From Actinomycetota bacterium (GTDB lineage Bacteria; Actinomycetota; Actinomycetes; S36-B12; UBA10799), in NCBI GenBank assembly GCA_030837445.1, contig JAUPKM010000075.1:1-36833 (forward strand): a stretch of DNA of 36,833 nt, read 5' to 3'. A program made the translations under genes and the position numbers. The notes beneath the pieces are model-generated. The model made no database searches, was not told where the DNA came from, and was given only the letters and a program-made list of their open reading frames with translations. Shown here one piece after another: positions 1,774-30,176 of this stretch (position 1 is its first letter; each line of letters starts with the position of its first letter).

Positions 1774-2024
1774 AGCGCCCCGCCATCCGCCACTTGATCT
1801 GAATGCTCTGCCCACCATCGGTGCGAGCCCGGTTCACCCACTGCGCCATCACGACACTCCCGCCTGCTGGCGGCAGACCCGCGACCCCCTCGCGTCCCGG
1901 GTTGCCTGCCACCGAACGTAGTCAGGACCTCCGCCACGACAGGGACGTGATCCCACGGGGAACAAAACGAACCAGCCCCTACCGCGTTTCCGCTGGTCAG
2001 GGGCTGGTTCCAAGTGTGTCCGAG
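1774..2024 (-). repeat. Copy A of the tRNA-Leu 3'-end/downstream-flank repeat, contiguous with the intact tRNA
   Basis: The reverse complement of 1774-2024 aligns by eye over about 250 nt with 29915-30176, and over about 185 nt with 5071-5258. There are scattered substitutions and one 12-nt indel. Homology with copy C ends at ...GGCGGATGGCGGGGCGCT. Confidence 0.85.
1961..2010 (-). terminator. Rho-independent-type terminator downstream of tRNA-Leu
   Basis: On the minus strand: a perfect 12-bp stem GAACCAGCCCCT / AGGGGCTGGTTC with an 18-nt loop, followed by GTTTTGTT. It starts 7 nt after the tRNA 3' end. Confidence 0.6.
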
Positions 2025-2100
2025 GGGGGACTTGAACCCCCATGCCCTTGCGGGCACTAGCACCTCAAGCTAGCGCGTCTGCCTATTCCGCCACCCGGAC
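2017..2100 (-). tRNA. tRNA-Leu (anticodon GAG), class II with long variable arm
   Basis: Hand-folded from the reverse complement: GTCCGGG acceptor pairs with CTCGGAC, with one G-U. Anticodon stem CTAGC/GCTAG with loop TTGAGGT gives GAG. Variable arm TGCCCGCAAGGGCAT. T arm GGGGG-TTCAAGT-CCCCC. Discriminator A, and CCA is not encoded. Confidence 0.9.
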
Positions 2101-2391
2101 TTGGCGCGGCTGCCCGCCGCGACGGCTACGATAATATCATGTCCCTACCCCAGCCACCGGCCACCCCCCGTCAGGCAGGACACCCGAGCCAACCAGAGAT
2201 CGGAGTCCCCCGCGGTAGGCGGGCGATCGCTGAGCGTCGAGAGGGTCGGAGATCCTCGACGAGGCCCCTGGTGGTGATCCACGACGCTATCGGGTTTGTT
2301 CGTCCGGGCGCCGTCCATGCTGAGCGGAAGCCGCCGTCCCGCATGATCAGACACCCGGACTGATCTCGCACGGCGACTCGGGAGCTCATGG

Positions 2392-2583
2392 TTATGGCTG
2401 GAGGAGTCTGTCCGATCGGCAACACGTCCGCGGCACGAACGTGCACGGGCCGGCGTCCAACGGCCGGGTCCGGAACGTGGCGACTTGCTCGTCCAGGTCA
2501 GCAGCCATCTGGGACACCACTTTGAGGGACTCCACTGCCCGCCCGCGGCAGGACTTGATCCTGGTGAACTTGCCCTCGAGCGG
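2392..2583 (-). pseudogene. IS256-family (Mutator-type) transposase remnant
   Basis: An unlisted minus-strand frame reads ...ESLKVVSQMAADLDEQVATFRTRPLDAGPCTFV... This matches the conserved central block of IS256/IS1081-type transposases (..MA.ELDE.V..FRTRPLDAGPYTF.AADAL..). There is no start, an in-frame stop at 2392-2394, and no catalytic region. Weaker similarity may continue to about 2140 in other frames. Confidence 0.55.
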
Positions 2584-2606
2584 GCCCGATCGTGGATGAT
2601 CTGATC

Positions 2607-3434
2607 ATGCCACGTCACCGTGAGCAGTTGATCAGCATATTGCGTCGCAGCGTGCTGCCGTTGGACGACGACGAGCTGGCCCGTTGTGCCGAGATTCACC
2701 CCCGGCAGTCGGTGAACCAGCTGTGTCGTCGACTTGCCGACGAGGGCGTCCTGCGCCGCTTCGCCGGGCCCGCCGGGAAGATCGTGAACGAGCTCGTCGA
2801 CGGTGTCTCGGAGACGCCGATACCGCAGGCGGCCGGTACACCAGACACGAGGCCGGTCGATGCCTCTACCGGAGGCAGGTCGATGGGCGTTGGAACCTGG
2901 CGGGTGACGGACGGCGCGGGCGTCGCCTTCGGCGACGCCCGGCGGCTGTGGGCGTCAGCCGCCCGAGAGACCCTGATTGACGTCGCTCGGCGCTACCACG
3001 CCTACATCACATACGGAGAACTGGCCGAGCAGGTGCAGCAAATGTCCGGCGTCCGCACACGCAGCCAGCTGCGTAACTGGATCGGCAAGGTGCTCGCCGA
3101 CGTCGTGCAGGACTGCCACCATCGCGGAGAGCCGCCATTGACGGCACTGTGCGTACACCAGGACCAGAGCGTGGGAGACGGGTACGCCTACGTTCTGCAC
3201 GTGGCTGGTCTGCCGGTTCCGGAGGACCTCGACGCGCACGCCGCGGAAGCCCGGCTGGAATGCCACCGATTCTTCGGCGCTCAGCTGCCTACGGACGGCG
3301 GACGGCCAGCCCTGCCTCCAGCGGTAGTCGCTGCGAGACGGCGCGCAGCCCGGGCGGTGACTCCCCCGGCCGCGATCTGCCCCAGCTGCTTCACCGCCCT
3401 GCCGAAGACGGGACGGTGTGACACCTGCTCATGA
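2607..3434 (+). CDS. Hypothetical protein; N-terminal winged-helix-like segment and C-terminal CxxC...CxxC zinc-ribbon-like tail
   Basis: High-GC3 ORF. I prefer the ATG at 2607 over the GTG at 2592. It ends CPSCFTALPKTGRCDTCS. The central ITYGELAEQV...RNWIGKVL block is not assignable by eye. Confidence 0.6.
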   Translation: MPRHREQLISILRRSVLPLDDDELARCAEIHPRQSVNQLCRRLADEGVLRRFAGPAGKIVNELVDGVSETPIPQAAGTPDTRPVDASTGGRSMGVGTWRVTDGAGVAFGDARRLWASAARETLIDVARRYHAYITYGELAEQVQQMSGVRTRSQLRNWIGKVLADVVQDCHHRGEPPLTALCVHQDQSVGDGYAYVLHVAGLPVPEDLDAHAAEARLECHRFFGAQLPTDGGRPALPPAVVAARRRAARAVTPPAAICPSCFTALPKTGRCDTCS

Positions 3435-3687
3435 AGCACGTCCCCGGAGAGCCGCCTCGCCCGGGAACTGGTGGGCGTCGCGGTCGAGAGCAGACTCGGT
3501 AAGCGCTGACACGGCCCCGCTCGGCTAAACGCCCGTACGCCGGATGGGTGAGGTGCACGCTGCGCGCATCGCGCAGGTCTGCGAGCAGGCCGGAGGGGAG
3601 CGCGTCGAGGTCGACCTCCTCGACTCCGTACCAGGACAGCGCGACGGAAGTATCGGCGACGACCTCCACTTCCGCGATGGTCTCCAT
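3391..3687 (-). CDS. Hypothetical small protein, possibly truncated
   Basis: ATG start, and high third-position GC over the first ~60 codons (METIAEVEVVADTSVALSWYGVEEVDLDAL...). Codon bias weakens towards the 3' end, which overlaps the convergent 2607-3434 gene by 44 nt. No family recognised. Confidence 0.3.
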   Translation of the reverse strand: METIAEVEVVADTSVALSWYGVEEVDLDALPSGLLADLRDARSVHLTHPAYGRLAERGRVSAYRVCSRPRRPPVPGRGGSPGTCFMSRCHTVPSSAGR

Positions 3688-3738
3688 CCGCTGTCCGACC
3701 GCTCCTCGTCAGCCTCCAAGGCTCGATGGTCTACACCA

Positions 3739-3837
3739 AACGCGGTACGAGACAGTTGGTACCGCACCGCGATCCCCGAGGCCGAACGCCTCTACGAGGA
3801 CTATCTCGACGAACGCAAGAGGGAGGCCCGACCATGA
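3739..3837 (+). pseudogene. C-terminal remnant of a HigB/Gp49-like (RelE superfamily) toxin
   Basis: The frame ends ...NAVRDSWYRTAIPEAERLYEDYLDERKREARP*. This resembles the conserved W-Y-x-x-A-I-P-x-A-x-x-x-Y C-terminus of Gp49/DUF891 toxins. Its TGA overlaps the ATG of the downstream HTH gene (ATGA at 3834-3837). No toxin-like N-terminal sequence is found upstream in any frame. Confidence 0.45.
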
Positions 3838-4154
3838 CCCCACCGCGACGCTGGCGTGACACCGACCACCTGGAACGGGCGGTCGAGACCGCCGGAGGCC
3901 CCGAAGCCTTCGACGCCGCCGTCGGCCAGATGCTCGACCAGGCCCGTGGCTGGCGCCTGGCCGAACTGCGCCAGCGGCGAGGTCTCACCCAGGCACAGGT
4001 CGCCGAAAGGACGGGCGTCAGCATCGCCCGGGTCTCCCAGATCGAGAACGGCGACCTGTCCACCCAAGACGTCCTGGCCCGCTACGTCACCGCGCTCGGC
4101 GGCACCCTCAAACTCATCGTTGACTTCGGCGACGAACAACTCAAGATCGCCTAA
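3834..4154 (+). CDS. XRE-family helix-turn-helix protein (HigA-like antitoxin)
   Basis: Classic XRE HTH: LAELRQRRGLTQAQVAERTGVSIARVSQIENG. The start is moved to the ATG at 3834 (MTPPRRW), which overlaps the stop of the upstream toxin remnant. Confidence 0.75.
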   Translation: MTPPRRWRDTDHLERAVETAGGPEAFDAAVGQMLDQARGWRLAELRQRRGLTQAQVAERTGVSIARVSQIENGDLSTQDVLARYVTALGGTLKLIVDFGDEQLKIA

Positions 4155-4379
4155 CCCCGGCGCCTGAGCCTCGACATCGACCAGCCCCAACCTCCGCCCG
4201 CCGCAACACGCCGACGCCATTCAGCACCAACCGGGTCGTGATCACGTAGTCCTGGTCAAGATCGAGCCACGACCACCGAGATTCGCGAGAAGTCCCGTCG
4301 CCGCCGGGATGATTACCGAACAGCCGACATCGTGGGCTGACAAGCCGTGGCGCGGCGTGACCGCAGGGAAGGAGGTTGG

Positions 4380-4532
4380 CGATATGTTCTGCCCATACAC
4401 TTGGCGGACCTGCACGGCCCCACCCGTGGCATGGTACGACTCGACCACACCCTGCGACGTCTCTGGCTCACCCTGTGGCTGCCACCTCGTCGTCGGCTGT
4501 GCCCCTGGCGACGCCAGGTGACGGGCGGGTGA
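4380..4532 (+). pseudogene. Internally deleted remnant of an AbiEi-like antitoxin, paralogous to 32039-32395
   Basis: The frame reads RYVLPIHLADLHGPTRGMVRLDHTL|RRLWLTLWLPPRRR. The intact gene reads RRYVVAASLADLHGPTQGVVRLERAL...(about 50 aa)...CRIWPTLWLPPRVR. Both ends match but the middle is missing. Confidence 0.5.
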
Positions 4533-4863
4533 GACGAGCAGTGATCCGCGCCTGCACATCAGCGACAGGGACCGTGCCCGCAGGAAGCTGCCCGGTGGCC
4601 AGGGTCCGCTCGGCCCGGGCAAGCATCCTCCGGTAGCCGTCAACGTCCAGGGCTGTGGTGGTCCGTGCGGTTCGCCGCCACACCGTGAGCGTCTCGAAGA
4701 CAGCAGCCAAGTCCAGATCCCGGGTGGCCTCAGCCATGCACGCCTGCCATGCCGCGTCAAAGAGCGGGACATCCTCGGGAGCCAGGGCTGCCCTCACCTG
4801 CGCGGGCGTAGCGTCAGAAAACGGCACGGCACCCAAGCCGCCGTCCACCGGTTCCGCCGTCAT
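4468..4863 (-). CDS. DUF6247-like protein (family recalled from memory)
   Basis: MTAEPVDGG...TPAQVRAALAPEDVPLFDAAWQACMAEATRDLDLAAVFETLTVWRR...YRRMLARAERTLATGQ resembles the small actinobacterial DUF6247 family. The start is set at the internal ATG at 4863. The last ~20 codons run into the antitoxin remnant on the other strand, so the native stop may have been lost. Confidence 0.5.
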   Translation of the reverse strand: MTAEPVDGGLGAVPFSDATPAQVRAALAPEDVPLFDAAWQACMAEATRDLDLAAVFETLTVWRRTARTTTALDVDGYRRMLARAERTLATGQLPAGTVPVADVQARITARLTRPSPGVARGTADDEVAATG

Positions 4864-5070
4864 GAGCGCGAGCCTACCCGGCCTCGTTTCACACAGCGAG
4901 ACCCTGATCAACATAGCCGGTCACCCATCGTAACGAACCCACCGGTCCCGGCTGTGATCTCGTGGGATCCCAGCGACAGTCACCGGTAGCTCAGCAGAGC
5001 AGTCAGGAGCACGTCCTGATCCCAGGAACCGTGACATGCTGGCGTTTCTGCAGGTCAACGGGCTCCGACA

Positions 5071-5258
5071 GGTGATTCAAGTCCCCCCTCGGACACACTT
5101 GTAACCAGCCACTGACCAGCGGAAACGCGGTAGGGGCTGATTCGTATTGTTCCCTGTGGGATCACCTGTGGGATCACACCCCTGTCTTGGCAGAGGTCCT
5201 GACTACGTTCGGTGGCAGGCAACCCAGGACGCGAGGGGGTCGCGGCTCTGCGCCGAGG
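5071..5258 (+). repeat. Copy B of the tRNA-Leu 3'-end/downstream-flank repeat
   Basis: TTCAAGTCCCCCCTCGGACAC is identical to the T-loop/acceptor 3' part of the tRNA at 2017-2100. It is followed by about 165 nt homologous to the tRNA downstream flank. The terminator hairpin here is degenerate. A tandem 12-mer CTGTGGGATCAC x2 sits at 5154-5177. Confidence 0.8.
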
Positions 5259-5308
5259 TTGCTATCCCCCACCTGCCGTCTCCCTACAGCCGATGCGAAT
5301 CGTTGCCG

Positions 5309-6058
5309 ATGTCGATCTCATCCGACGAGGAGGTTGTCGTGGTCGACGAGGAGACCAGCTCCGGCGTAGTTCCTGCTGGCTGGCAGAAGAAGGCAGACCA
5401 GCTGATCCAGTTCGTCGTCAACGCAGGACTGGACGGCGCGGGGCCGTGGAAAGGCGCCCAGGACGTCGCGGACGAGATCCTGGCCACGGCACGTACGCGC
5501 GAGCAGGCGGTCGACCGACTCGTCGCCACCCACATGCGGATGGTGACCGCGAGCGGGTTCCTGGCCGGTCTAGGTGGGCTCATCACCCTTCCGGTGACCG
5601 TGCCGGCGGACCTGTCCGCGTTCTACGTGCTCAGCACCCGCATGGTCGGCGGGATCGCATACCTCAACGGGTATGACATTGCCACGGAGGAGGTTCGCAG
5701 CGTCGTCCTCGTCAGCCTGATCGGCGCTGGCGGCACGTCTCTTCTTGCCGAAGCCGGAGTTCAGTTGGGGACCAAGGCCGCGAAGGCAGCCTTGAAGCAG
5801 GTCCCGGGAAAGATACTCCAGGGGATCAACCGTCAGGTGGGGTTCCGGCTGATCACCAAGGCAGGGACCACCGGCGTCGTCAACATGTCCAAGATGGTCC
5901 CGCTCGTCGGCGGCGTCGCCGGTGCAGGCATCAACTTCGCGGGCATCAAGGCGACCGCTGCCCACGCACGCCACAACTTCGTTTATGTCGCCGACGCCAG
6001 TGAGGACGGAGAGGAAGCACCGACGGTGTCCGGCCCCTGCTCGCGGACCGGCCGATGA
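5309..6058 (+). CDS. EcsC-family-like protein
   Basis: The start is moved to the ATG at 5309 (MSISSDEEV), because the upstream part of ORF 5147-6058 lies inside repeat B. The sequence has a Gly/Ala-rich amphipathic pattern (GFLAGLGGLITLPVTVPADLSAFYVLSTRMVGGIAYLNGYD) as in EcsC proteins. The function call is tentative. Confidence 0.6.
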   Translation: MSISSDEEVVVVDEETSSGVVPAGWQKKADQLIQFVVNAGLDGAGPWKGAQDVADEILATARTREQAVDRLVATHMRMVTASGFLAGLGGLITLPVTVPADLSAFYVLSTRMVGGIAYLNGYDIATEEVRSVVLVSLIGAGGTSLLAEAGVQLGTKAAKAALKQVPGKILQGINRQVGFRLITKAGTTGVVNMSKMVPLVGGVAGAGINFAGIKATAAHARHNFVYVADASEDGEEAPTVSGPCSRTGR

Positions 6059-6074
6059 TGGATCGTCGCCTGGG

Positions 6075-6209
6075 TCACGTCGCCTTCAACTGCGACACGG
6101 TGAAGTCCCGGTGCGGCTCGATCGCCGACCATGTGACCTGCCGCAACCCCGCATTGGTTATCGCCGGGAACCACTGCCCAGCCAACTCCTGCCAGTCCTG
6201 GCGGGTCAT
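6075..6209 (-). CDS. Small ORF (44 aa) coupled to the upstream gene
   Basis: MTRQDWQELAGQWFPAITNAGLRQVTWSAIEPHRDFTVSQLKAT. Its ATG overlaps the TGA of 6206-6904 (ATGA at 6206-6209). No family recognised, and it could be a gene fragment. Confidence 0.25.
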   Translation of the reverse strand: MTRQDWQELAGQWFPAITNAGLRQVTWSAIEPHRDFTVSQLKAT

Positions 6210-6904
6210 CCGGTACCGCCCGTCCGCCGCAGGTCCTCGGCAAGGTGGTCCGCTTCGCGCTGCGTGGTTGCGAAGCAGGTGACCGTCCAGTGGTCGGTTC
6301 CGTCGGCTGGCCACGCGTCGAGGTGGCACCAGACCGCGCGGCGGTTGTCGCGCCACCACCGGTCGCCCCCGCCGCTCGCCTCCACGACGGCGGGCAGGCC
6401 GAGCCCGGCACCGACGGCTGGCTCGCCGGTGGGGACGACCTGACTGAACACGGCCCTGGGCATCGAGGCGACCTCCAGGAGCAGCGCGTGCTTGTTCAGT
6501 CGCTGCTCGGCGGAGTCGTCCAGGACGCGCTGAGACCAGGTGCCGAGGCAGGCGGTCACACGCCCGTCCAGCAGCACGTCCAGCGGGGCCGTCTGGCTGC
6601 CGTCGAGAACCCCGTAGAACGCCCAGCCCAGCGGCGTCTCGTAAAGCGAGACGTCACCATCCAGGCCGTACTCCATCTCGTTGGGCCAGCCAGGCACGGC
6701 GTACGACAGGCCCCCGAAGCGGTCCTCGAAGGCGAGCATGGCCTCGACGGCGCCCTCCGGCATGCGCACCTCGTGTCCGTCCTCGACCACCGCTCGCGCG
6801 GCGCGCCGGATGTACGCGGCGTCGGTGCGAGGGTGACGCGCGACATGCCGGGTAAGGAAGACGCGCAGCCGCGAGTTCACCTGGGGGTCGATGGCGATGT
6901 TCAT
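6206..6904 (-). CDS. Hypothetical protein
   Basis: ORF with coding-like composition. The start is set at ATG 6904 (MNIAIDPQV). It lies in an operon-like array downstream of the NUDIX gene. No motif recognised. Confidence 0.6.
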   Translation of the reverse strand: MNIAIDPQVNSRLRVFLTRHVARHPRTDAAYIRRAARAVVEDGHEVRMPEGAVEAMLAFEDRFGGLSYAVPGWPNEMEYGLDGDVSLYETPLGWAFYGVLDGSQTAPLDVLLDGRVTACLGTWSQRVLDDSAEQRLNKHALLLEVASMPRAVFSQVVPTGEPAVGAGLGLPAVVEASGGGDRWWRDNRRAVWCHLDAWPADGTDHWTVTCFATTQREADHLAEDLRRTGGTG

Positions 6905-6944
6905 GCGGCGGTCCCACGTTCGGTGTCGATGCCGATGCTCGGTC

Positions 6945-7382
6945 TCAACCTCGCTGGTAGTTCGCGAGGATCTGCTGGACGGCGTCGGTGACGGGAGGTT
7001 CCTCGTCAAGGGGATGCCATCGGTGGTCGTTGTGCTCGGTGAGAATGACCGGCTTGGGGGCGGCGACGGTGACGGCGAAGGTGAACTGCCGGCTGGGGCG
7101 GCCGCTGCCGAAGGTGTAGTCGAAGGCCCCGAGGTAGGTGTCGAGATGTTCCACGGTCAGGCCGGTCTCCTCGGTCACCTCGCGGGCCAGGGCGGCGTCG
7201 AGGCTCTCGCCGGGGTCGACCTTGCCGCTGGGCAGTTCGTAGATCCCGCCCATGAAGTCGTCGGCCGGGCGTCGCAGGAGCAGGACCCGGTCGTCGTGGA
7301 CGACGACGGCTCCGACGACGAGCTGGGCGATGCCGTCGCGTTGGGCAGCGCTGGCGAGATCCTCCAGCAGAGTGCCGGTCAT
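6945..7382 (-). CDS. NUDIX hydrolase
   Basis: Complete Nudix box GGIYELPSGKVDPGESLDAALAREVTEETGL (G-x5-E-x7-R-E-U-x-E-E-x-G-U). The start is set at ATG 7382 (MTGTLLEDL). Confidence 0.85.
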   Translation of the reverse strand: MTGTLLEDLASAAQRDGIAQLVVGAVVVHDDRVLLLRRPADDFMGGIYELPSGKVDPGESLDAALAREVTEETGLTVEHLDTYLGAFDYTFGSGRPSRQFTFAVTVAAPKPVILTEHNDHRWHPLDEEPPVTDAVQQILANYQRG

Positions 7383-7393
7383 CACGCGGTTCG

Positions 7394-9469: not shown

Positions 9470-9678
9470 CTGATCGGAGGTGCCTGCCAGGCCTGGCGCG
9501 GGCGGCAGGGGGGGGCGGTCGCCCGCACCAGGGGATTCGTGGCATTCACCGATCAACGGCCGTACCGTGAACCCAACCGGGAACCAAACCGGACAACCAG
9601 GGCATGCCTGCCGCACCGCTGCCGCACTGTCGTTGCACCTATGGCCCTGGCCTGGGACAACATCGGTAGGGAGGTGGA

Positions 9679-10044
9679 ATGGGCAAGCGAATCCAGCTCG
9701 CGCAACGCCGCAAGTCCGTCGGCTGCAGCCAGGAGCAGCTCGCCGAGCGCCTCGGCGTCGACCGCTCGACCGTCGCCCGCTGGGAAGCCGGCGACACCGA
9801 GCCGCTCCCGTGGCTTCGCCCCAAGCTGGCCCGCATCCTCCAGGTCTCCCGCGACCAGCTCGACGCCTACCTCGACGAAGCCACGCTCACCCCGACCAAG
9901 GACGACGATCGCCTCGCCAACACCGTCCGTCATCCCGAGGCCGTTGACCTGGCCGCTGTCCACGGGCTGCGCGACAACCTCGACTCCCTCGACCGGGCCT
10001 ACGAGATCGCGCCGTCCAGCTCTCTCCTGGCCGAGACCGGCGCC
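9679..10044 (+). pseudogene. 5' fragment of an XRE-family regulator (HTH plus linker only)
   Basis: MGKRIQLAQRRKSVGCSQEQLAERLGVDRSTVARWEAGDTEP is an XRE HTH. Similarity to the usual actinobacterial XRE-TPR regulators ends at ...SSLLAETGA (10044). The open frame then runs out of frame through the next gene up to 10677. Confidence 0.6.
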
Positions 10045-22016: not shown

Positions 22017-22134
22017 GTTCCCCACCGCCGGACCTGCACTCCGGCCATCCCATCCCGACCCACGACCGCCGTTCGAGCCCTTCGGCGGGCGGTCGCGGCC
22101 CGGCGCCGCGCGCCGCGACCTACAGGAGCACACC

Positions 22135-25100
22135 TTGACGGTCTCATCCGCCCCAGCCCAAGGCGCCGCCGTCGCGCCGGCCCTGCCCGCCGCGACGGCG
22201 GCGCAGAGGTACGACGCGCTGCTGGGCAGCCTCGCCCGCCGCGTCGTCGACACCGCCGCCGGCACTCTCATCCCGGCCGGAACGCGGTTGCCTGACCCGC
22301 CCGCGCAACAGCGGCTATGGCTCGGCATGCTCGCCAGTGCCCCGAAGCTCATGGCCGAAGCCGCAAACGGCTACACATACGGCGAGCGGCTTGTTCCGCC
22401 TGCGCAGGGGTTCACGTTCCGGGTGCCGGCGCTGCCGGTCACGCTCGAGTTCACCGTGTCTGCGGCCGCGTATGTCGCCCTGCACCCCACCATGGGCGAG
22501 CAGAATGCGGCGGTGACCGCCGCCGCCGACCCGGGCACCGAGCCCGGCCCGGTCGGCCTCCGCCCGGGCATAGGCCGCGCAGCCCCGGATGCGGGCCGCG
22601 GGCATCCACTGGCCACGGTGTGGACGAAGGTCGCCATCGACCCAGTCACCATCACCGTGCCCCTCACCATCGACACCGTCCGGGCCGGAGAGGATGAGCT
22701 CGCCGCCGCGCTGCGGTCCGCGGTCCGGCCGCCAGCCGGCGCGGAACTGCACCGGCCGCGACGGCTGTCCCCGGCCCCCGCCGGCAACCTGCCCCGCCCG
22801 GACGACATGCTGAACGCGACCACGTGGGCCCGGTACTGCACGGCGAACCTCCTCGACGCCGCCGACGTCCTACCGCCAGAGTTCCGCGCCGCCGTCGAGT
22901 TTGACATCACTCCCGGTGACGGGTACGTCGAGATCCTCGCCACGGTCGTCAACCTCACCCCGGCACCGGACCAGCAGACCGTGGACGGCACACACGCGTA
23001 CCAGACGCCGTACCTGAATACGCATCTGTACGAGGTGCAGCTGATCTGTGCGCTCGATGCGCCGCTGGTGCCATACCAGCTCGAACAGGTCCAGCAGTCC
23101 TACCGGTATGAGCGGGCCGTCCCCGCGCTAGGGCACGCTTGCGCCGTCGACGTGACCCGCGCCGGCGGTCATACTCGGCTGGCGACCATGTACGCCGCCG
23201 AGCAAGCCACTGCTCGGGTGCACCCACGCCGGCATGTCGCGCTCCCAGACGGGACCGTGACCACCCTCGATACCTCGTTCCAGGCCCTGATCGCCGACCC
23301 GATCGCCGCAGTGACTGCGCTCGTCGACGCGCACCGCGCCTGGGTCGACACGGAATGGAGCGTCGCGGCTCTCGACGCCCGCGCCGGTGCCCGCGGCTGG
23401 GACGTCTCCGCCCGCGCGGACGCCGACGCCGACGCCGTCACCGCCCACGACGAGGTCGACTGGGTCGCTGCCGGGTTGGACCTGCTCCGGACCGACCCAC
23501 AGGTCCGGGACGCATTCGTACTCGCGAACCGGGCCGTCGCCGCAGCAGCGAACCGAAGCTACGACGCTTGGTTCCCGTTCCAGATCGCGTGGCTGGTCGG
23601 CTGCCTGCCCAGCATGGTCGACCCAGCCGGGCACCCGGACGTCGAGATCGTCTGGTTCGCCACCGGCGGCGGGAAGTCCGAGGCGTACCTCGGACTTATG
23701 CTCACCACCCTGTTCTATGCTCGGCTCACCGGCGTCACGGCTGGCGCGCAGGTGTGGGCCCGGTTCCCGCTGCGGCTGCTCGCGCTGCAGCAGACCGAAC
23801 GGTTCACCGCGATGGTGCTGCACGCCGAGCTGCTGCGCCGCGACCACCCGGACATCGCTGTCGGCGACCCATTCGGCGTCGGGTACTTCGTCGGCGGAAC
23901 CAACACGCCGAACCGACTGCAGGCGCCCGACCCGACCAACCCGTACTACCGCGGTCAGGACCCGCACTCCGCCGCGACCGCTGAAGCATGCCGGATCCTC
24001 GCCGACTGCCCGCTGTGCCGTCAGCCGCTCGAGGTCGGCTTCGACGAGCTGTCCTGGACGATGCAGCACCGCTGCCGCAACGCCAGCTGTCGGATGACGG
24101 GCGTGCTGCCGGTGTGGGGCATCGACGACGAGATCTATCGGCACGCCCCAGCCGTGTTGGTCGGCACTGTCGACAAGCTCGCCCAGCTCGGCCAGTCGAA
24201 GGAGTTCCAGGTCCTCCTTGGGCGTGCCCACTCCCGTTGCCCGCAACACGGCTACACCGGCCACCCGACCTGGTGCGCGGTGTTCGGGTGCAAGCAGAGC
24301 CGACAACCCATCGCGGCCGGGTTCGGGCACGTCCGCCTCGAGATCGCCGACGAGCTGCATCTGCTCGACGAGTCCCTCGGAGCGCTCGACGGCATGTACG
24401 AGACGCTGCTGCAGGCCATCAGTGAAGACCTCGGCAACCCGCCGATACAGATTGTTGGCGCGACCGCGACCATCGAGGGCTACAAGCATCAGGTGCAGCA
24501 CCTGTATCGCCGCGATGCGCGCCGGTTCCCTGTCAACGGCCCGGACGTCGGGGAGACGTTCTGGTCCACCACCACCGCCGACGAGCCGCTGCGCCGCTAC
24601 CTCGGCGTCCGACCCCGGTCGATTACCATGGTTACCGCGACCCGCGAGGTCGCACTCACCCACGGCGGCTGGCTCGCCGACCTGCTCACCGACCCGGCCG
24701 CCGTGCTCGACGAAGCAGGCCTGGACGCGGCGGACCCGGCGCTACGCGACGAAGCCCACGCCGCTGGCCGCGACCTGTACGAGGTATTCGTCGCGTACTG
24801 CCTGCGCAACGAGGACCTGACCAGCTTCACGCGCGACCCGGAGGTCCGGGCACTACTCGGAAGCCAGCTGAACTTGGCCGTCATCAACGGTGACGCGGAA
24901 CCGACCGCGGTCCGGCGCGCTGTTGCCCGGTTGACTAACCCGCCCGCCGCCGCCGAGGACCGGGTCACGATGATCGCCGCGACTAAGGCGATCGGGCATG
25001 GGTTCGACGTTGGGAGGCTCGGCGTCATGACCGTGATGGGCACCCCAACATCCGCGGCCGAGATCATCCAGGCCTCCGCCCGGGTCGGGCGCCGTTGGCC

Positions 25101-25599
25101 TGGCCTGGTCATCAACGTGATCAACCCGACCCGGGACCGAGACGCTTCTGTATTCCGGTACTACGCCGACTGGATTCGGTTCCTCGACCGGCTTGTGAAC
25201 AAGGTCCCGGTGAACCGGGAGTCGCTGCCGGTGCTGCGTCGGGTTCTGTCCGGCGGGCTGATGGCATGGCTTCTGCAGGTCCATGACCGGGACTGGCTCA
25301 CCGGCGCCCAGCGTCGCAAAACGCTCGCCGATTCGACTGCGTTCGCGGCCGCCGTGACGGCCGGGTTCGTCGACCGGGCCCTGCTCATCGACAACCTGTC
25401 CCGTGGGTTCGGGATCCACCCAGACAGCGTGTACCACCAGCTGCACCGGGACGCGATCGCGGCGTGGGTCGACGACCGACTCGCCGGGCTACCGATGCAG
25501 GCCGAGCCCGGCAAACGGCTGCCGGACCTACTCACCCCGCCGGTGCCGCGGTCCCTGCGCGACGTCGAGGAACCGATCACCATTTACGCCGATCTGTGA
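22135..25599 (+). CDS. DrmA-like superfamily-2 DEAH-box helicase
   Basis: TTG start 7 nt after AGGAG. Walker A FATGGGKSEAYLG (23659-23679). DEAH-type box ADELHLLDESLG (DELH at 24349-24360). Helicase C-terminal motifs TKAIGHGFDV and QASARVGRR. Cys-rich inserts lie between motifs I and II (CPLCRQP...CRNASC, CPQHG...CAVFGC). A ~500-aa N-terminal region is unassigned. Confidence 0.85.
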   Translation: MTVSSAPAQGAAVAPALPAATAAQRYDALLGSLARRVVDTAAGTLIPAGTRLPDPPAQQRLWLGMLASAPKLMAEAANGYTYGERLVPPAQGFTFRVPALPVTLEFTVSAAAYVALHPTMGEQNAAVTAAADPGTEPGPVGLRPGIGRAAPDAGRGHPLATVWTKVAIDPVTITVPLTIDTVRAGEDELAAALRSAVRPPAGAELHRPRRLSPAPAGNLPRPDDMLNATTWARYCTANLLDAADVLPPEFRAAVEFDITPGDGYVEILATVVNLTPAPDQQTVDGTHAYQTPYLNTHLYEVQLICALDAPLVPYQLEQVQQSYRYERAVPALGHACAVDVTRAGGHTRLATMYAAEQATARVHPRRHVALPDGTVTTLDTSFQALIADPIAAVTALVDAHRAWVDTEWSVAALDARAGARGWDVSARADADADAVTAHDEVDWVAAGLDLLRTDPQVRDAFVLANRAVAAAANRSYDAWFPFQIAWLVGCLPSMVDPAGHPDVEIVWFATGGGKSEAYLGLMLTTLFYARLTGVTAGAQVWARFPLRLLALQQTERFTAMVLHAELLRRDHPDIAVGDPFGVGYFVGGTNTPNRLQAPDPTNPYYRGQDPHSAATAEACRILADCPLCRQPLEVGFDELSWTMQHRCRNASCRMTGVLPVWGIDDEIYRHAPAVLVGTVDKLAQLGQSKEFQVLLGRAHSRCPQHGYTGHPTWCAVFGCKQSRQPIAAGFGHVRLEIADELHLLDESLGALDGMYETLLQAISEDLGNPPIQIVGATATIEGYKHQVQHLYRRDARRFPVNGPDVGETFWSTTTADEPLRRYLGVRPRSITMVTATREVALTHGGWLADLLTDPAAVLDEAGLDAADPALRDEAHAAGRDLYEVFVAYCLRNEDLTSFTRDPEVRALLGSQLNLAVINGDAEPTAVRRAVARLTNPPAAAEDRVTMIAATKAIGHGFDVGRLGVMTVMGTPTSAAEIIQASARVGRRWPGLVINVINPTRDRDASVFRYYADWIRFLDRLVNKVPVNRESLPVLRRVLSGGLMAWLLQVHDRDWLTGAQRRKTLADSTAFAAAVTAGFVDRALLIDNLSRGFGIHPDSVYHQLHRDAIAAWVDDRLAGLPMQAEPGKRLPDLLTPPVPRSLRDVEEPITIYADL

Positions 25600-25695
25600 C
25601 CCGCGCAGCCCGCCTTCCCCCGGTCCGCTGGCGCTCCCCCACCCAGCCCGACGCCCCCAACCTTGTGCCCGTCCTGCTCGAAGGAGACGCCTCCG

Positions 25696-27534
25696 ATGGC
25701 GCTCGAAACGCTCAACCGGACCAACATTCAGGCGCTATGGCGGTACATGCCCGGACAGCCGTACAACTTCGGCACGAAGGCAGCCGTCGTCGGCGAACCG
25801 CCGCGGCAAACCAGTCCGCTCGGCATCCCGGAGGGATGGGTGGAGGTGCAGCTTCGCCGTCTGATCCGCCCATTTGCCGAGGCCTCGTCGAACATACCGA
25901 ACAGCGGCCCAGAGCTCGACATCGTCGACCGGCGCCAGTATGAGCTGGTCCGTGCCGACGATCTACGCGCCGCCCGGTTCCCTAACACATACCTGTGCGC
26001 CGACTGTGGCGCGTTCCGGACTGCCCGCGCCAGCGACCGGGTTCCCGACTGCGCTACGCACGGGCCGATGGAGCAGTTCACGTTCGTCGAGATCCACGAG
26101 TGCGGACATCTCGGCCAGCTGCGGCCGCCGCAGTGCGCGAACAACTGCAGAGCAGCGATGCGGCTATTCAATACGAAGTCGTTCAACACCGGCCGCTGGT
26201 ACTGGTCCTGCTCGCGGTGCGGCACTCGCTCCGAACGGCCAATCGCCCAGTGGTGCGAATGCCGGCACGGAAAGGTAACCGTCACCCGGGTCCCGCAGAC
26301 CTCGGCGTACTACCCGCAGCAAATCACCGTGATCAACCCGCCGACCCGGGAGACGTACGCGGCGCTCACGCACGAGCACACCCACGCTGCAGCGCTCGCC
26401 CAGGCGCTCGGGATCCTGCCGCCCGGCCTGGACGGGCTGCGGACCGCGGCTGGCGGCGTGTCCAACGACGCGGTCGCCCAGTTCGAGGCGCTCGCCGCGA
26501 CGCTCGGCTGGAAGCCCGGCAACCCGCTACACGACGCTGGCCTGGCCGACGCTCAGGCCAAGGTTGGCAGCACTCCGGTGTGGCGAGACGACGTCGACGC
26601 GCTCGGGCTGGAGCCGGAGCGGCTGGACCTCCTCGGCGAGGAATGCCTGCAGCTATCGCTCGCCCGGTCGGCGAACGCGATGAGCGTCGAGGACCTGCTC
26701 GCCGAAGCCGGCGGCGGGCCGCTCGCGGCGGCGTACGGCACGTACCGGGCACTGTTCGACCGGTACGGGCTGGCGGATGTGACGCTGCTGCGACAACTGC
26801 CGGTCGCATTCCTTGTCGCTGGATACACCCGTGTCTCGCCGCGGGCGAGTACGGTGAACCGGCGCGGTGACACCGTCACTACCCGGTTCCGGTTCTTCCC
26901 AGGCACCCGCAACGGTAAGTTTCCCATGTACGGGGTGCGGACCGAGACCGAAGGACTGCTATTTCGGATCGATCCGCTGAAGATCGTGACCTGGCTGGTC
27001 GATTCCGGCATCGTCGACGACCCCGGGGCGACCGACTTCGCGGCCGCGCAACGCTGGTTGCTCACCGTGTGCGACCCGGTTACTGACCTGTTTACCGCGC
27101 CGGAGAACCGGATCAGCCGTGCGGTGCTCGGGCTGACGCACTCGTTCGCGCACCGTGCGATGAAGGCGCTCGCTGCTCGGTGCGGGCTGAACGTCGACTC
27201 TCTGGCCGAGTTCCTGTTCCCAGCCAATGGGGCTTTCCTCATCTACGCCAACACCCGTAGCGAGTTCATCCTCGGTGGGTTGGAGCACGTGTTCCGGTTC
27301 GACCTGTTCGACGCTCTGACCGAGTTGGCTGCGGAGTCGCGATGCGTGTTCGATCCGCCGTGCCGGCAAGCGTTCGGCGGGGCGTGCGCGGCGTGTCTGT
27401 ACGTGTCGGAGATGGCGTGCGCTCGGTTCAACACGGTCTTGGATCGAAACCTGCTGTTCGGGACGATGCCACCGGTCGGCGGTGCGGCGCTGGGCCCGGA
27501 AGCGGCCGCGTGGCGCGGTTTCTGGACACCCTGA
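25696..27534 (+). CDS. DrmB-like DUF1998 (MrfA-type Zn-binding) domain protein
   Basis: I prefer the ATG at 25696, 8 nt after AAGGAGA, over the GTG at 25663. The C-terminus CVFDPPCRQAFGGACAACLYVSEMACARFNTVLDRN (27343-27450) is the four-Cys DUF1998 signature as I recall it. The N-terminal third holds further zinc-ribbon-like pairs (CADCG...C..H, CSRCG...CEC). Confidence 0.8.
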   Translation: MALETLNRTNIQALWRYMPGQPYNFGTKAAVVGEPPRQTSPLGIPEGWVEVQLRRLIRPFAEASSNIPNSGPELDIVDRRQYELVRADDLRAARFPNTYLCADCGAFRTARASDRVPDCATHGPMEQFTFVEIHECGHLGQLRPPQCANNCRAAMRLFNTKSFNTGRWYWSCSRCGTRSERPIAQWCECRHGKVTVTRVPQTSAYYPQQITVINPPTRETYAALTHEHTHAAALAQALGILPPGLDGLRTAAGGVSNDAVAQFEALAATLGWKPGNPLHDAGLADAQAKVGSTPVWRDDVDALGLEPERLDLLGEECLQLSLARSANAMSVEDLLAEAGGGPLAAAYGTYRALFDRYGLADVTLLRQLPVAFLVAGYTRVSPRASTVNRRGDTVTTRFRFFPGTRNGKFPMYGVRTETEGLLFRIDPLKIVTWLVDSGIVDDPGATDFAAAQRWLLTVCDPVTDLFTAPENRISRAVLGLTHSFAHRAMKALAARCGLNVDSLAEFLFPANGAFLIYANTRSEFILGGLEHVFRFDLFDALTELAAESRCVFDPPCRQAFGGACAACLYVSEMACARFNTVLDRNLLFGTMPPVGGAALGPEAAAWRGFWTP

Positions 27535-27617
27535 CTCCTCCGCTGTCCGGGCTGCTCATACAGGCCGGTGACCCGGTTGCGGTCGCGCACGGGCTGGCCA
27601 CCTCCGCCGCGGCCAGC

Positions 27618-27684
27618 GCGTCATGAGTGTCAAGTACCGGGTTATATGGAGACCATCAAACCCGGTACTTGACACTCATGACGC
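27618..27684. repeat. Perfect 26-bp inverted repeat with a 15-nt spacer
   Basis: GCGTCATGAGTGTCAAGTACCGGGTT (27618-27643) is the exact reverse complement of 27659-27684. The spacer is ATATGGAGACCATCA. It lies 84 bp after the DUF1998 gene stop and 120 bp before the ISL3 end. There is no U-tract, and the arms are less GC-rich than the surroundings. Confidence 0.9.
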
Positions 27685-27852
27685 ACTGCGGGGGTCCGAC
27701 ATCCGCTGGATCCTGGTGTGGGGGAGAAATCGTGACAGTTCCGCCCACCCAGCGCATCCCGCACCGCGGGCAGACCATCCGACACGTGTCCGAGCCGTCG
27801 ACGAATTCGGTTCTGGCGCTGATCTTGTGGTGCGGTGGGACGAGGCTTGGGG

Positions 27853-29438
27853 TCATGCGAGTAAGACGCGCTTGGGGAGGAGGTCGAAGTTGGCCCTGCC
27901 GTAAATGTGCCGCTTGAAGGTCTTGATCTTGTTGATGGTGCCTTCGACGGCGCCGGAGTTGTAGGTGAGGGTCAGGCCGTTGATGACGGCGGTGAGGTCG
28001 TTGCGTAAGTGCGTGGTGAAGGAGCTGAGCGGGGTGAGGGTGTCGGCCTCGACCGCGGTGATCCAGTCCGGCACGTGCTGTCCTTCCAAGCGGGTCATCA
28101 TGCGCGCGAAGCCGGTGACGTGCTCGGCCAGCCTGGTCAAGGTCGGGGCTGCGTTCCAGGCCTGGCTTCCAGGCAGGCTCGGTCCTCGGGAGCCAGGCGG
28201 TCGGGGCGGGTCATCAGCCAGCGGCTGGTCTGTCGGATCGTCGGTACCGTCGCCCCGGGCGGCGGCGCGCACAGCGCGCCGGGGAAGCGGTGCAGGTAGC
28301 GGGTGATCGTCTGGACCGAGCCGGTGTGCCCCTGCCCGCAGATCTCGCGGGTGAGAGCGGCGGTGCTGGTGATGCCCTCGTTCCACCGCCGGTGCAGGTG
28401 CTCCTTGAACTCGTCCAGCGTGCTGTGCCGCTCCAGCGTCGGTGCGAGGACCTCCTGGACGGTCGTGGCGTTCGCGAAGCGCCGCACGGTCTGGATGTCC
28501 AGGTTCAGCGACCGCGCCACCTCGTTGCGGCTGGCACCCGCGTCCAGGAGCGCGTGGATCTGGCGGTACCGCTCCCGGGTCCGTACCAGGATCGCCTTCT
28601 CCGGCACCGTGTTCACCACCTCCGGGACGACGCCACCGGCGTGTGCGACGGCAGCATCACCCGCAGCAGCATCACGGGCAGCAGCCTGCGCAGGCGCCGG
28701 CGAGGGTCCCTCGTCCCCGTCGGTGCTCAGTGTCGACAGGGTGACGTCAGGCGGCGTGTCCCGCAGCGCGGCGCGATGTGCGGTGACGGTCTTGGCGACG
28801 GCTTCGCCGAGGTTGGCCCACAGGTGGTACCGGTCGGCTACCTGGACCGCCTCGGGTGCGCCGCTCGTGGCGCCCGCGGCGTACTGGCCGGTGCGGTCCC
28901 GGCAGATCACGCCGATGCCGGGGTGCGCCGTCAGCCACTGCGCGAACGGTTCGGCGGGGCGCCCAGGCAGCAGGTCGACCGGCCGGTGGGAGTCCATGTC
29001 GACCAGCACCGTGCCGTAGTCGGGGCTCCGTCGCAGGGCGAAGTCATCGACCCCCAGAACCGCGAGCGGACCCTGGGCAGGATCGGGCAGCGCCCGGACC
29101 CGTCGCAGGAGGGCGTCGCGCCCGACGGTCATTCCCAGGCGTGCGGCGAGCCGGGCTCCGGCGCGGCCGGCCAGGGCCAGCCCGATCGCCTCGATCATCT
29201 CCACCGCCAACGGCGTGAAGCGCGCGTGTGGCCTGGTCAGTCCGGGAATCTGCTCGGCGAATGTCACCGTCGCGCAGCCCGGGTCCGGGCAACGCCAGCG
29301 CCGCACCACCACCTCCAGCAGCAGCGGCCTACCAGCCACCGCAGCGTCGGTCAGACACCGCCGGTACGTCCCGTGGACGGTTGTTGATGTCGTCCCGCAT
29401 CGCGGGCAATCGCCTGCCCGGGCCCGACCGCGAACCAC
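27853..29438 (-). pseudogene. ISL3-family transposase, split by a frameshift
   Basis: The N-terminal ORF (28137-29438) has the zf-ISL3 motif DCPRCGTTSTTVHGTYRRCLTD and a DDE region (LGVDDFALRR..., VICRDR, VADRYHLWAN). The C-terminal ORF (27853-28386) has NSGAVEGTINKIKTFKRHIYGRANFDLLPKRVLL. The frames must join near 28155-28175, where GCCTGGAAGCCAGGCCTGGAA is partly repeated. Confidence 0.8.
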
Positions 29439-29474
29439 CAGGCGTAACCGCGAACCACCAGGTGTAACCGCGAG
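29428..29474 (+). repeat. 20-bp tandem repeat (2.3 units) at the transposase start
   Basis: CCGCGAACCACCAGGCGTAA, then CCGCGAACCACCAGGTGTAA, then the partial unit CCGCGAG. The first unit contains the GTG start codon region of the transposase on the opposite strand. Confidence 0.8.
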
Positions 29475-29914
29475 CCCAGGCTCTCGATCTCGTCGACGAC
29501 GACACCAGCCAGATGCGGGAGCAGGACCTCAAGATCTGAACGATCACACAGACGAGATCAAAACCAACTCCGGACCCGAACCACCGCAGACACGCCCAAG
29601 CCACCCCAGATCACAAGATCAGCGCCAGAACCGAATCTCGTGATGCTCGACATCCGGAAGGTATCGCCCCTCACCGATGACACGTACTCCCTCAGTTCGG
29701 CCACGAGGATGCACCCGCGGACCCGTCCATGGAGAGACGGTCACGACCATCCCAGCCCACCCCTCCCTGCCCGGCGCTCGCTCCCCCACCAGGCCGAGCT
29801 CGCCACCATGGGGTGTTCTCAACTGTTCGACTCGACCGATCCACGACAATCGTGATCAACTAAACCCGCAGGTCGATGCCTTGCACCGGCATGGGTATTC
29901 GATTGTTTACGCCT

Positions 29915-30176
29915 CTCGGACACACTTGGAACCAGCCCCTGAACAGCGGAAACGCGGTAGGGGCTGGTTCGTTTTGTTCCCTGTGGGATCACCTGTGGGA
30001 TCACGTCCCTGTCGTGGCAGAGGTCCTGACGACGTTCGGTGGCAGGCAACCCGGGACGCGAGGGGTCGCGGGTCTGCGGCCGACAGGCGGGAGTGTCGTG
30101 ATGGCGCAGTGGGTGTACCGAGCTCGTACCGATGGTGGGCAGAGCATTCAGATCAAGTGGCGGATGGCGGGGCGCT
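29915..30176 (+). repeat. Copy C of the tRNA-Leu 3'-end/downstream-flank repeat
   Basis: It starts with CTCGGACAC, the last 9 nt of the tRNA. It includes an intact copy of the terminator hairpin (29929-29978) and the tandem 12-mer CTGTGGGATCAC x2 (29981-30004). It matches copy A to its distal end. Its last ~24 nt encode the final codons and stop of the M4 peptidase gene on the other strand. Confidence 0.85.

What the first reader, a model, noticed from the sequence alone, without database searches (positions are those of the whole stretch)
1774..30176. Three copies of the tRNA-Leu 3' end plus downstream flank: two direct copies bracket 24.8 kb, and the tRNA-linked copy is inverted
Seen: copy A (1774-2024, minus) is contiguous with the intact tRNA. 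Copy B (5071-5258, plus) begins with 21 nt identical to the tRNA T-loop/acceptor 3' part. Copy C (29915-30176, plus) begins with the last 9 nt of the tRNA. All three continue into the same downstream flank, including the terminator hairpin, which is intact in A and C and degenerate in B. B and C share a tandem duplication of CTGTGGGATCAC that A lacks, while A and C share about 80 nt more at the distal end. B and C are direct repeats. They enclose the EcsC gene, the decayed sugar operon, the defence locus and the ISL3 element. A is inverted relative to both. Established: genomic islands integrate at tRNA 3' ends and leave direct repeats of that end, and recombination between inverted repeats flips the intervening DNA. 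Inference: this is a tRNA-Leu-targeted island, or tandem islands, later rearranged by inversion between repeat copies. The duplicated 12-mer could be an arm-type recombinase site. No integrase is present in the window.
Basis: partly seen in the sequence, partly recalled or inferred. Interest (0 to 1): 0.65.

Follow-up and report, generated by a model that had tools for sequence, protein, structure and literature searches.

The report
Integrase-less island remnants at tRNA-Leu
The three repeats are leftover attachment-site ends, each missing its integrase gene, of mobile islands that insert next to a tRNA-Leu gene; two of them bracket a 24.8-kb phage-defence island, which is a common kind of genome scar rather than a new mechanism.

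Summary
There are three copies of the tRNA-Leu(GAG) 3' end plus 170-265 nt: A 1774-2027 (-), B 5076-5258 (+) and C 29912-30176 (+), 88-96% identical to one another.

The repeated "downstream flank" is not chromosomal flank. It is the integrase-proximal arm of a tRNA-targeting tyrosine-integrase element. It holds the tRNA 3' end, the tRNA terminator, two tandem arm-type sites (GTGGGATCA), a leader, and the first 25 codons of the integrase gene.

Metagenome relatives carry the same DNA in front of an intact 443-aa integrase (PF00589). Five more distant relatives repeat the layout next to tRNA-Leu or tRNA-Gly genes or an attP-type site.

Copy B also has an upstream P arm with a palindromic arm-site pair, so it is a complete attP-type site without its integrase. 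B and C bracket an integrase-less 24.8-kb island carrying DISARM-like genes, PDC-S29 and an ISL3. It resembles a CIME left by tandem accretion.

Recombination between these copies can never make A and C direct.

A and C lose their match to the integrase at the same nucleotide, and this is unresolved. The contig is the whole record and no close relative genome exists, so empty-site and flanking-integrase checks were impossible. This is an ordinary new member of a known kind.

The parts
2016..2100 (-). Intact tRNA-Leu(GAG), the attachment target. A -10-like box (TGATATTAT) lies about 40 nt upstream, at about 2135-2146.
   Evidence: ARAGORN. Rfam tRNA, 51 bits. The promoter box is conserved in position with L002, L038, L003 and L004.
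1774..2015 (-). Copy A, the P' arm contiguous with the tRNA (attL type). It contains the terminator hairpin (1969-2010), one arm-type site (1947-1958), a leader, and the integrase start codon at 1849 with codons 1-25 ending at 1775.
   Evidence: tblastn of the L022 integrase matches residues 1-26 at 1852-1775, 92% identical.
2101..4959 (.). Segment U, lying between the inverted copies A and B. Its left end is the native tRNA promoter. It then carries a 280-aa unknown protein (2592-3434 +), an XRE-type HTH protein (3726-4154 +) and a DUF6247 protein (4468-4914 -). It must contain an unlocated junction between native and element DNA.
   Evidence: Pfam, NCBIfam and PHROGs scans; alignment of the tRNA upstream regions.
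4960..5075 (+). P arm of copy B. It holds a palindromic arm-site pair TGGGATCCCA (4963-4972), about 108 nt upstream of the tRNA-like piece, and an inverted site CTGGGATCA (5017-5025).
   Evidence: L039 has the same layout, with a palindromic pair about 113 nt upstream of the tRNA-like piece.
5076..5258 (+). Copy B. It contains 22 nt of the tRNA 3' end, a degenerate terminator (5106-5139), two arm-type sites (5154-5177) and a spacer. It is cut about 40 nt before the integrase start codon. Together with the P arm it forms an attP-type (P-core-P') site without an integrase.
5259..29911 (+). Integrase-less island between B and C. Genes: EcsC/PDC-S29 (5147-6058), a decayed sugar-gene cluster (DegT 7394-8308, GFO/IDH 8450-9616), a DrmE-like protein (10766-13126 -), a 2131-aa protein (13447-19842), an MBL/beta-CASP protein (19839-22016), DrmA (22135-25599), DrmB (25663-27534) and an ISL3 element (27805-29636). 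A weak tRNA-like stretch lies at 29866-29911.
   Evidence: Pfam. PADLOC: DrmA 4.5e-94, DrmB 5e-39, PDC-S29 5e-68. ISL3 terminal inverted repeats.
29912..30176 (+). Copy C. It contains 10-12 nt of the tRNA 3' end, the terminator (29929-29970), two arm-type sites (29981-30004), a leader, and the integrase start codon at 30101 with codons 1-25 ending at 30175. The stop codon of the convergent M4 peptidase gene (30153-30155) lies inside it.

Best explanation
What the repeat is. Each repeat is the integrase-proximal end of an integrative element that uses a tyrosine integrase to insert at the 3' end of tRNA-Leu(GAG). The element carries its own copy of:
- the tRNA 3' end, which is the crossover region;
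- the tRNA terminator;
- two tandem arm-type binding sites for the integrase N-terminal domain;
- the integrase leader and gene.
This way insertion restores a complete, terminated tRNA.

What the three copies are. Copy A is the attL-type junction on the live tRNA. Copies B and C are internal attP-type junctions, as left by repeated insertion of related elements at one site (tandem accretion).

State of the array. All integrase genes have since been deleted. A and C keep 25 codons and B keeps none. The 24.8-kb B-C segment is therefore an att-flanked, integrase-less defence island, like a CIME. It could move only if a related integrase and excisionase acted in trans.

Orientation. The inverted position of A needs at least one rearrangement not mediated by these repeats. 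Afterwards, homologous recombination between A and B or A and C can flip the 3-kb or 28-kb segment, and the tRNA stays intact in every isomer.

Shown versus inferred. Shown: the identity of the repeat, the arm-site architecture and the absence of an integrase. Inferred: accretion, trans-mobilisability and the inversion history.
For: 1. Close relatives with the gene intact.
- A 59-aa ORF beginning in copy A found two proteins with the same N-terminus.
- One contig, L002, has an intact tRNA-Leu(GAG), the same hairpin, two 12-mers and the same spacer, about 90% identical over 339 nt. An integrase ORF with a PF00589 domain follows.
- L022 carries the full-length 443-aa integrase (PF00589, E 1.5e-14).

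2. What is left in the window. tblastn of that integrase finds only residues 1-26, at A and at C.

3. Layout in five more distant relatives (47-64% identical integrases).
- Four sit immediately after a tRNA gene, with the integrase reading away from it: L003, L004 and L038 after tRNA-Leu(GAG), and L033 after tRNA-Leu(CAG).
- In L037 a tRNA-Gly(CCC) gene is followed by a gap of about 250 nt that holds the arm-site pair, and then the integrase.
- L039 is an attP-type site with only 27 nt of the tRNA.

4. Arm sites co-vary with the integrase N-terminus.
- MAQWV-type N-termini go with tandem GTGGGATCA (window, L033, L037; L002 has the diverged pair TTGGGATCA/ATGGGATCA).
- Other N-termini go with other tandem motifs: GGGAACAC, TGTCCCAC, GGGCGCACC and TGGGTGCAC.

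5. Copy B reproduces the L039 attP layout, with a palindromic arm pair about 108 nt upstream and a tandem pair downstream.

6. The cargo is typical island content: DrmA, DrmB, PDC-S29 and an ISL3. A relative's island carries Bil defence genes.

7. Tandem arrays, three-repeat islands and CIMEs are documented (PMC3218068, PMC5704250).
Against: - No intact integrase, excisionase, replication or transfer gene is in the window, so nothing shows recent mobility.
- No attR was found within 10 kb in any relative, so the extent of the core and of the P arm rests on copy B and L039 only.
- The P arm left of C is degenerate. Its similarity to the region left of B and to the tRNA is not significant.
- A and C stop matching the integrase at the same nucleotide. 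That fits duplication of one truncated copy better than independent insertions.
- No related genome was available to show that the B-C segment is variable.
- The inverted orientation of A is not explained mechanistically.
Confidence: 0.78

Rival explanations
1. Duplication of a single dead remnant. One element inserted and lost its integrase at codon 25. That roughly 265-nt stub was then copied within the genome to give A, C and a shorter B. The copying could be segmental or inverted duplication, homologous re-insertion of an excised circle, or helper-integrase-driven shuffling. There were no three separate insertions.
For: - A and C lose their match to the integrase at the same nucleotide (after GGGGCGCT), and their outer flanks are unrelated.
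- A, B and C share several derived bases relative to L002, and A-C is the closest pair at 96%.
Against: - The copies differ by 4-8%. In the integrase part, A is as close to the metagenome relative L002 (95.9%) as it is to C (93.9%).
- B has its own full P arm with arm sites, as expected for an independent attP-type junction.
- The 30 nt beyond A's end show a weak anchored resemblance to integrase codons 26-35 (p about 0.014). The common endpoint may therefore simply be the end of the shorter copy, with gene conversion keeping the shared part similar.
- No mechanism was found that copies a unit bounded by the core on one side and codon 25 on the other.
Confidence: 0.3
2. The repeat is native chromosomal DNA downstream of the tRNA. 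It was duplicated as long att repeats when islands inserted, and it was later inverted by recombination between the repeat copies.
For: The repeats start in the tRNA 3' end and include the tRNA terminator, which could look like host flank.
Against: - The same DNA is fused to an intact integrase gene in L002 and L022, and the layout recurs next to other tRNAs and in an attP-type site.
- Codons 1-25 of the integrase lie inside A and C.
- Inversions between the copies always leave A and C inverted, so they cannot produce or resolve the observed orientation pattern.
Confidence: 0.04
3. Assembly artefact. The contig is a chimeric path through a repeat, so the inverted position of copy A, or the linkage across B or C, is not real.
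For: The window is an entire 36,833-nt contig of unknown assembly method. Repeats are classic places for mis-joins.
Against: - Each copy has private substitutions and indels, and the longest exact shared run is 49 nt. Reads or k-mers longer than 50 nt would separate them.
- No hybrid copy is evident.
- An artefact would not create integrase stubs, P-arm sites or the degenerate terminator in B.
Confidence: 0.06

Closest known systems
Tandem accretion of integrative elements and CIMEs (cis-mobilizable elements; ICESt1/ICESt3-type arrays in Streptococcus, tandem AICEs in Frankia and Streptomyces)
   Same: - Several att-type repeats lie at one tRNA 3' end.
[quoted passage not shown]
- Related elements share one site.
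- Three-repeat islands with alternative excision products are documented (PMC5704250, PMC3218068).
   Different: - No functional partner element is present.
- One copy is inverted relative to the other two, which site-specific accretion does not produce.
- The repeats are long (170-265 nt) because they include the whole P' arm and an integrase stub, not just the core.
tRNA-targeting tyrosine-integrase elements of Actinobacteria (AICEs such as pSAM2/SLP1-type, integrative prophages and genomic islands)
   Same: - The integrase gene lies directly next to the tRNA 3' end and reads away from it.
- The element supplies the tRNA 3' end.
- Arm-type sites sit on both arms, as in lambda-type attP sites (general knowledge).
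- The catalytic domain is PF00589.
   Different: - The window has no integrase, excisionase, rep or tra gene, so AICE or prophage membership cannot be claimed.
- Among the relatives, one island (L037) has Replic_Relax genes and another (L033) has Bil defence genes, so the family is better described as a set of integrase-defined islands.
- No published name for this integrase family was found; my literature search was limited.
Invertible segments bounded by inverted repeats (recombination-driven flip-flop between prophage or island copies)
   Same: A/B and A/C are inverted repeats of 170-265 nt at 88-96% identity. They could flip 3 kb or 28 kb while keeping the tRNA intact.
   Different: There is no dedicated invertase, no evidence of both orientations, and no gene whose expression would obviously switch.

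Membership tests
tRNA-targeting tyrosine-integrase integrative element (att module) | [quoted passage not shown] | tested here: met
   The tRNA-Leu(GAG) is at 2016-2100. B repeats 22 nt of its 3' end and C repeats 10-12 nt.
tRNA-targeting tyrosine-integrase integrative element (att module) | Tyrosine recombinase gene (PF00589) adjacent to the att site | tested here: not met
   In the window only codons 1-25 survive, at A and C. The feature is met in relatives carrying the same DNA: L002 and L022. The window therefore holds remnants, not an element.
tRNA-targeting tyrosine-integrase integrative element (att module) | Arm-type integrase-binding repeats on the P and P' arms | tested here: met
   Sequence evidence only.
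- A tandem GTGGGATCA pair lies after the terminator in B, C, L033 and L037. L002 has the diverged pair TTGGGATCA/ATGGGATCA, and A has a single copy.
- The motif changes when the integrase N-terminus changes.
- A palindromic pair lies about 108 nt upstream of B, as in L039.

Binding was not tested.
Genomic island | Present in some strains and absent in close relatives (an empty site exists) | not testable with these tools
   The repeat 21-mer is absent from the 185,579 species genomes. The nearest CAAX homologue is 69% identical and has no tRNA nearby. The contig is the whole record.
CIME / tandem accretion array | Segment flanked by att sites in direct orientation but lacking integration and transfer genes | tested here: met
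   B and C are direct repeats 24.8 kb apart. Pfam and PADLOC scans of the ORFs between them gave no integrase, excisionase, relaxase or FtsK-type hit. The att site at C has a degenerate P arm.
CIME / tandem accretion array | Excision or mobilisation when a related integrase is supplied | not testable with these tools
   This needs an experiment or read evidence for B x C circles.
AICE (actinomycete integrative and conjugative element) | int, rep and tra (FtsK-like) modules between att sites | tested here: not met
   None of the three modules was detected in the window. Among the relatives, only L037 shows Replic_Relax genes.
Recombination-driven invertible segment | Both orientations present in a population | not testable with these tools
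   Only the inverted repeats themselves are shown. No reads were available.

The most novel reading that the evidence does not exclude
Two unusual readings are not excluded.

1. The array is not dead debris but a working arrangement. The integrase-less, att-flanked DISARM-like island (B-C) may still be excised and moved by a related integrase supplied in trans. The inverted att remnants may make the tRNA-bearing 3-kb or 28-kb segment a flip-flop.

2. The shared codon-25 endpoint of A and C may reflect aberrant integrase action. Intact relatives carry an inverted 7-nt copy of the tRNA-end motif (GTCCGAG, the reverse complement of CTCGGAC) 4 nt downstream of the truncation point. Recombination there would be a site-specific way for these elements to inactivate their own integrase and invert.
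Probability: 0.1. Interest if true: 0.55.

Novelty: new member of a known kind. Interest (0 to 1): 0.3.

Why it matters
- It corrects the annotation logic for this locus. The long 'flank repeats' are element arms with integrase stubs, which identifies the 24.8-kb DISARM-like/PDC-S29 region as a former mobile island.
- It defines, from sequence alone, the attP architecture of an actinobacterial integrase family whose members insert at tRNA genes: a palindromic arm pair, about 110 nt, the tRNA 3' end, the terminator, a tandem arm pair, then the integrase.
- In relatives this family also carries defence cargo (Bil). This helps in finding defence islands and predicting their borders.
- It is not a new mechanism.

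Tried and rejected
1. Database searches with the repeat itself.
- The flank DNA against the phage and plasmid collections (blastn, distant mode) gave no match.
- The 25-aa peptide by tblastn against the same collections gave no match.
- Pfam and PHROGs scans of the short peptides gave nothing.
- The repeat 21-mer gave 0 hits in species genomes and in viral contigs.

2. Exact look-ups of my own ORF calls for the CAAX and GNAT genes found nothing on record, because I had chosen the wrong start codons.

3. More integrase remnants elsewhere in the window: none. There is no significant integrase homology past codon 25 by unanchored local alignment.

4. Homology among the three sequences beyond the repeats: not significant.

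5. An inverted tRNA 3' end just beyond each repeat.
- C scored p = 0.005. However, that stretch encodes the genuine C-terminus of the M4 peptidase, which aligns to the last residues of thermolysin. Rejected.
- Anchored tests at A could not separate 'the integrase continues' from 'recombinant joint' (both p about 0.014).

6. The A...C segment as a composite transposon.
- There is no target-site duplication at 1773/30177.
- Joining the outer flanks does not give a sensible M4 gene end.

7. The regions left of B and left of C as decayed tRNA 5' halves or as mutually homologous P arms: not significant. Rfam finds no tRNA-like hit there.

8. The second direct repeat, 4402-4444 / 32118-32160: no protein-level similarity.

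9. A fourth CTCGGACAC 9-mer at 27786-27794, next to the ISL3: within chance expectation.

10. An attR in relatives: none found within 10 kb.

11. Synteny of CAAX homologues: a conserved CAAX-kinase-regulator block but no tRNA nearby, so there is no empty-site reference.

Full report
**Observation**

The window has one tRNA gene, tRNA-Leu(GAG), at 2016-2100 on the minus strand. Self-comparison finds three copies of its 3' end plus downstream DNA:
- A, 1774-2027 (-), contiguous with the tRNA.
- B, 5076-5258 (+).
- C, 29912-30176 (+).

Identity over the part shared by all three is 96.1% for A-C, 91.7% for A-B and 92.2% for B-C. A 21-mer from the repeat occurs three times against zero expected. 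The 12-mer CTGTGGGATCAC is doubled in B and C and single in A. The terminator hairpin is strong in A (-34.3 kcal/mol) and C (-31.6) and degraded in B (-18.9).

**What the repeat is**

The distal part shared by A and C contains a start codon followed by MAQWV(N/Y)RARTDGGQSIQIKWRMAGR. Two of the three A/C differences in it are synonymous. A protein search with the 59-aa ORF of copy A found two proteins with the same N-terminus.

- **L002**, a 1,362-nt metagenome contig, has an intact tRNA-Leu(GAG), the same hairpin with compensatory changes, two 12-mers and the same spacer. It is about 90% identical to A over 339 nt. An ORF then continues, with one in-frame TAG, into a PF00589 integrase domain.
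- **L022**, a second contig, carries the full 443-aa integrase (PF00589, E 1.5e-14).
- **L001**, a third contig, has the same gene cut by an IS at about codon 60.

tblastn of the full integrase against the window finds only residues 1-26, at 1775-1852 (-) and 30098-30175 (+).

The 'downstream flank' is therefore element DNA. It consists of the tRNA 3' end, the tRNA terminator, two tandem repeats, the integrase leader and integrase codons 1-25.

**The family**

Integrases 47-64% identical show the same layout:

| Locus | Source | Context |
|---|---|---|
| L003 | Nocardioidaceae MAG | directly after tRNA-Leu(GAG) |
| L004 | Cellulosimicrobium | directly after tRNA-Leu(GAG) |
| L038 | metagenome | directly after tRNA-Leu(GAG) |
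| L033 | metagenome | directly after tRNA-Leu(CAG), beside the fhaA-pknB cluster |
| L037 | metagenome | tRNA-Gly(CCC), then about 250 nt holding the arm-site pair, then the integrase |

Each has a hairpin and then tandem 9-12-nt repeats before the integrase:
- MAQWV-type N-termini go with a GTGGGATCA pair at 12-nt spacing (window, L033, L037; L002 has the diverged pair TTGGGATCA/ATGGGATCA).
- Other N-termini go with other motifs: GGGAACAC x3 (L038), TGTCCCAC x3-4 (L003), GGGCGCACC x2 (L004) and TGGGTGCAC x2 (L039).

This co-variation, seen across three different tRNA targets, is good sequence evidence that the 12-mers are arm-type sites for the integrase N-terminal domain. Because L002 has two copies, A lost one.

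**attP architecture and copy B**

L039, an IMG/VR contig, has no tRNA. It has only 27 nt of the tRNA-Leu 3' end, followed by the hairpin, the tandem motif pair and the integrase. It also has a palindromic pair of the same motif about 113 nt upstream. This is an attP-type site.

Copy B has the same plan:
- a palindromic TGGGATCCCA at 4963-4972, about 108 nt upstream of its tRNA-like piece;
- an inverted CTGGGATCA at 5017-5025;
- the tandem pair at 5154-5177.

The 7-mer TGGGATC occurs 9 times in the window, and 8 of those are in or next to the copies. B is therefore a complete P arm-core-P' arm site that lacks only the integrase. The region left of C is degenerate and its similarities are not significant.

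**Content**

- **Between B and C:** EcsC/PDC-S29, decayed sugar genes, a DrmE-like protein, a 2131-aa protein, an MBL/beta-CASP protein, DrmA, DrmB and an ISL3.
- **Absent:** no Pfam or PADLOC hit to an integrase, excisionase, relaxase or FtsK-type protein.
- **Comparison:** the island in relative L033 carries Bil defence genes.
- **Reading:** the B-C segment fits an att-flanked, integrase-less island (CIME-like) inside a tandem array. This evolutionary route is documented for ICEs, IMEs and AICEs (PMC5704250, PMC3218068).

**Orientation**

The orientations are A(-), B(+), C(+).
- Homologous inversion is possible only between inverted pairs, that is A/B or A/C.
- Such an inversion flips only what lies between the two copies.
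- The outer copies A and C therefore stay inverted in every reachable isomer.
- An all-direct array cannot be linked to the present state by these inversions alone, so another event is needed. Candidates are an illegitimate inversion of the tRNA-bearing piece or insertions made after such a flip.

At least 45 nt to the right of the tRNA is native promoter DNA, while the right end of segment U is a P arm. U must therefore contain an unlocated junction. In all isomers the tRNA remains intact.

**Unresolved**

A and C stop matching the integrase at the same nucleotide, and their outer flanks are unrelated. Two explanations remain:
- They descend from one already truncated stub.
- The boundary is set by the shorter copy C, with gene conversion between the copies. 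The next 30 nt of A resemble integrase codons 26-35 weakly (anchored p about 0.014).

At C the junction lies just past the end of the M4 peptidase, which aligns to the last residues of thermolysin. The M4 stop codon is supplied from inside the repeat.

**Limits**

- The window is the entire contig.
- The repeat is absent from 185,579 species genomes.
- The nearest homologue of the flanking CAAX protease is 69% identical and has no tRNA nearby.
- Consequently the empty-site comparison, the flanking-integrase search and read checks were not possible.
- Misassembly is unlikely, because the longest exact shared run is 49 nt, but it is not excluded.

**Verdict**

This is a decayed, partly inverted array of attachment-site remnants from a tRNA-Leu(GAG)-specific integrase island family, enclosing a defence island. 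It is a new member of a known kind and of modest interest.

Noticed in passing
window 36047-36832 (+), cut by the contig end: An ORF with three tandem cold-shock domains. NCBIfam matches CspE-type models in 3 stretches and also the retron Se72 effector model. It sits next to a PIN-domain gene (35410-35919) in the accessory region to the right of copy C.
   Followed up: partly
window 10766-27534: A DISARM-like locus. DrmA (22135-25599), DrmB (25663-27534) and a DrmE_C-domain protein (10766-13126, -) are present. It also has a 2131-aa protein with no Pfam or PADLOC hit (13447-19842) and an MBL/beta-CASP/RMMBL nuclease-like protein (19839-22016). No methyltransferase or DrmC hit was seen, so the composition is atypical.
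   Followed up: partly
window 30153-31798 (-): The M4 (thermolysin-like) peptidase gene is split into two frames at about 30956, with the FTP propeptide part and the catalytic/C-terminal part in different frames. Its last roughly 8 codons and its stop come from inside repeat C. It is probably a pseudogene or a fusion product.
   Followed up: partly
window 27805-29636: An ISL3-family element with terminal inverted repeats of about 25-30 nt but no clear 8-bp target duplication (GTCGACGA versus CTCGTGAT). It may have taken part in a rearrangement.
   Followed up: partly
window 5147-6058 (+): The EcsC-family gene directly after copy B matches the PADLOC candidate defence family PDC-S29 (E 5e-68). 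The mechanical ORF call starts inside the repeat; the real start is probably the GTG near 5339, after a GAGGAGG ribosome-binding site.
   Followed up: partly
window 9679-10677 (+); L037 15902-17700: An HTH (RstR/XRE-like) protein fused to a 5-formyltetrahydrofolate cyclo-ligase-like part. It is 36-39% identical to two adjacent genes inside the L037 island, which has a related integrase. This suggests shared cargo between islands of this family.
   Followed up: no
L033/L034 (ENA metagenome contigs), 11.5-17.5 kb in L033: An island with a 64%-identical integrase at tRNA-Leu(CAG), beside the fhaA-pstP-rodA-pbpA-pknB cluster. It carries BilA-BilD-like (ubiquitin-like) defence genes and an HTH/M78 (ImmA-like) pair.
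   Followed up: no
L002 457-459; L001 about 240: The two closest relatives of the window's integrase stub are also damaged. L002 has an in-frame TAG at codon 53. L001 is cut by a DDE_Tnp_1 IS at about codon 60. Integrase decay seems common in this sub-family.
   Followed up: no
L002 377-388 (integrase codons 26-29); the L022 integrase begins the same way: Intact integrase genes carry GTCCGAG, the reverse complement of the tRNA-end motif CTCGGAC, 4 nt downstream of the point where A and C are truncated. It may be coincidence, because it encodes the conserved Ser-Glu of the RWQSETF motif, or it may be a pseudo-att site.
   Followed up: partly
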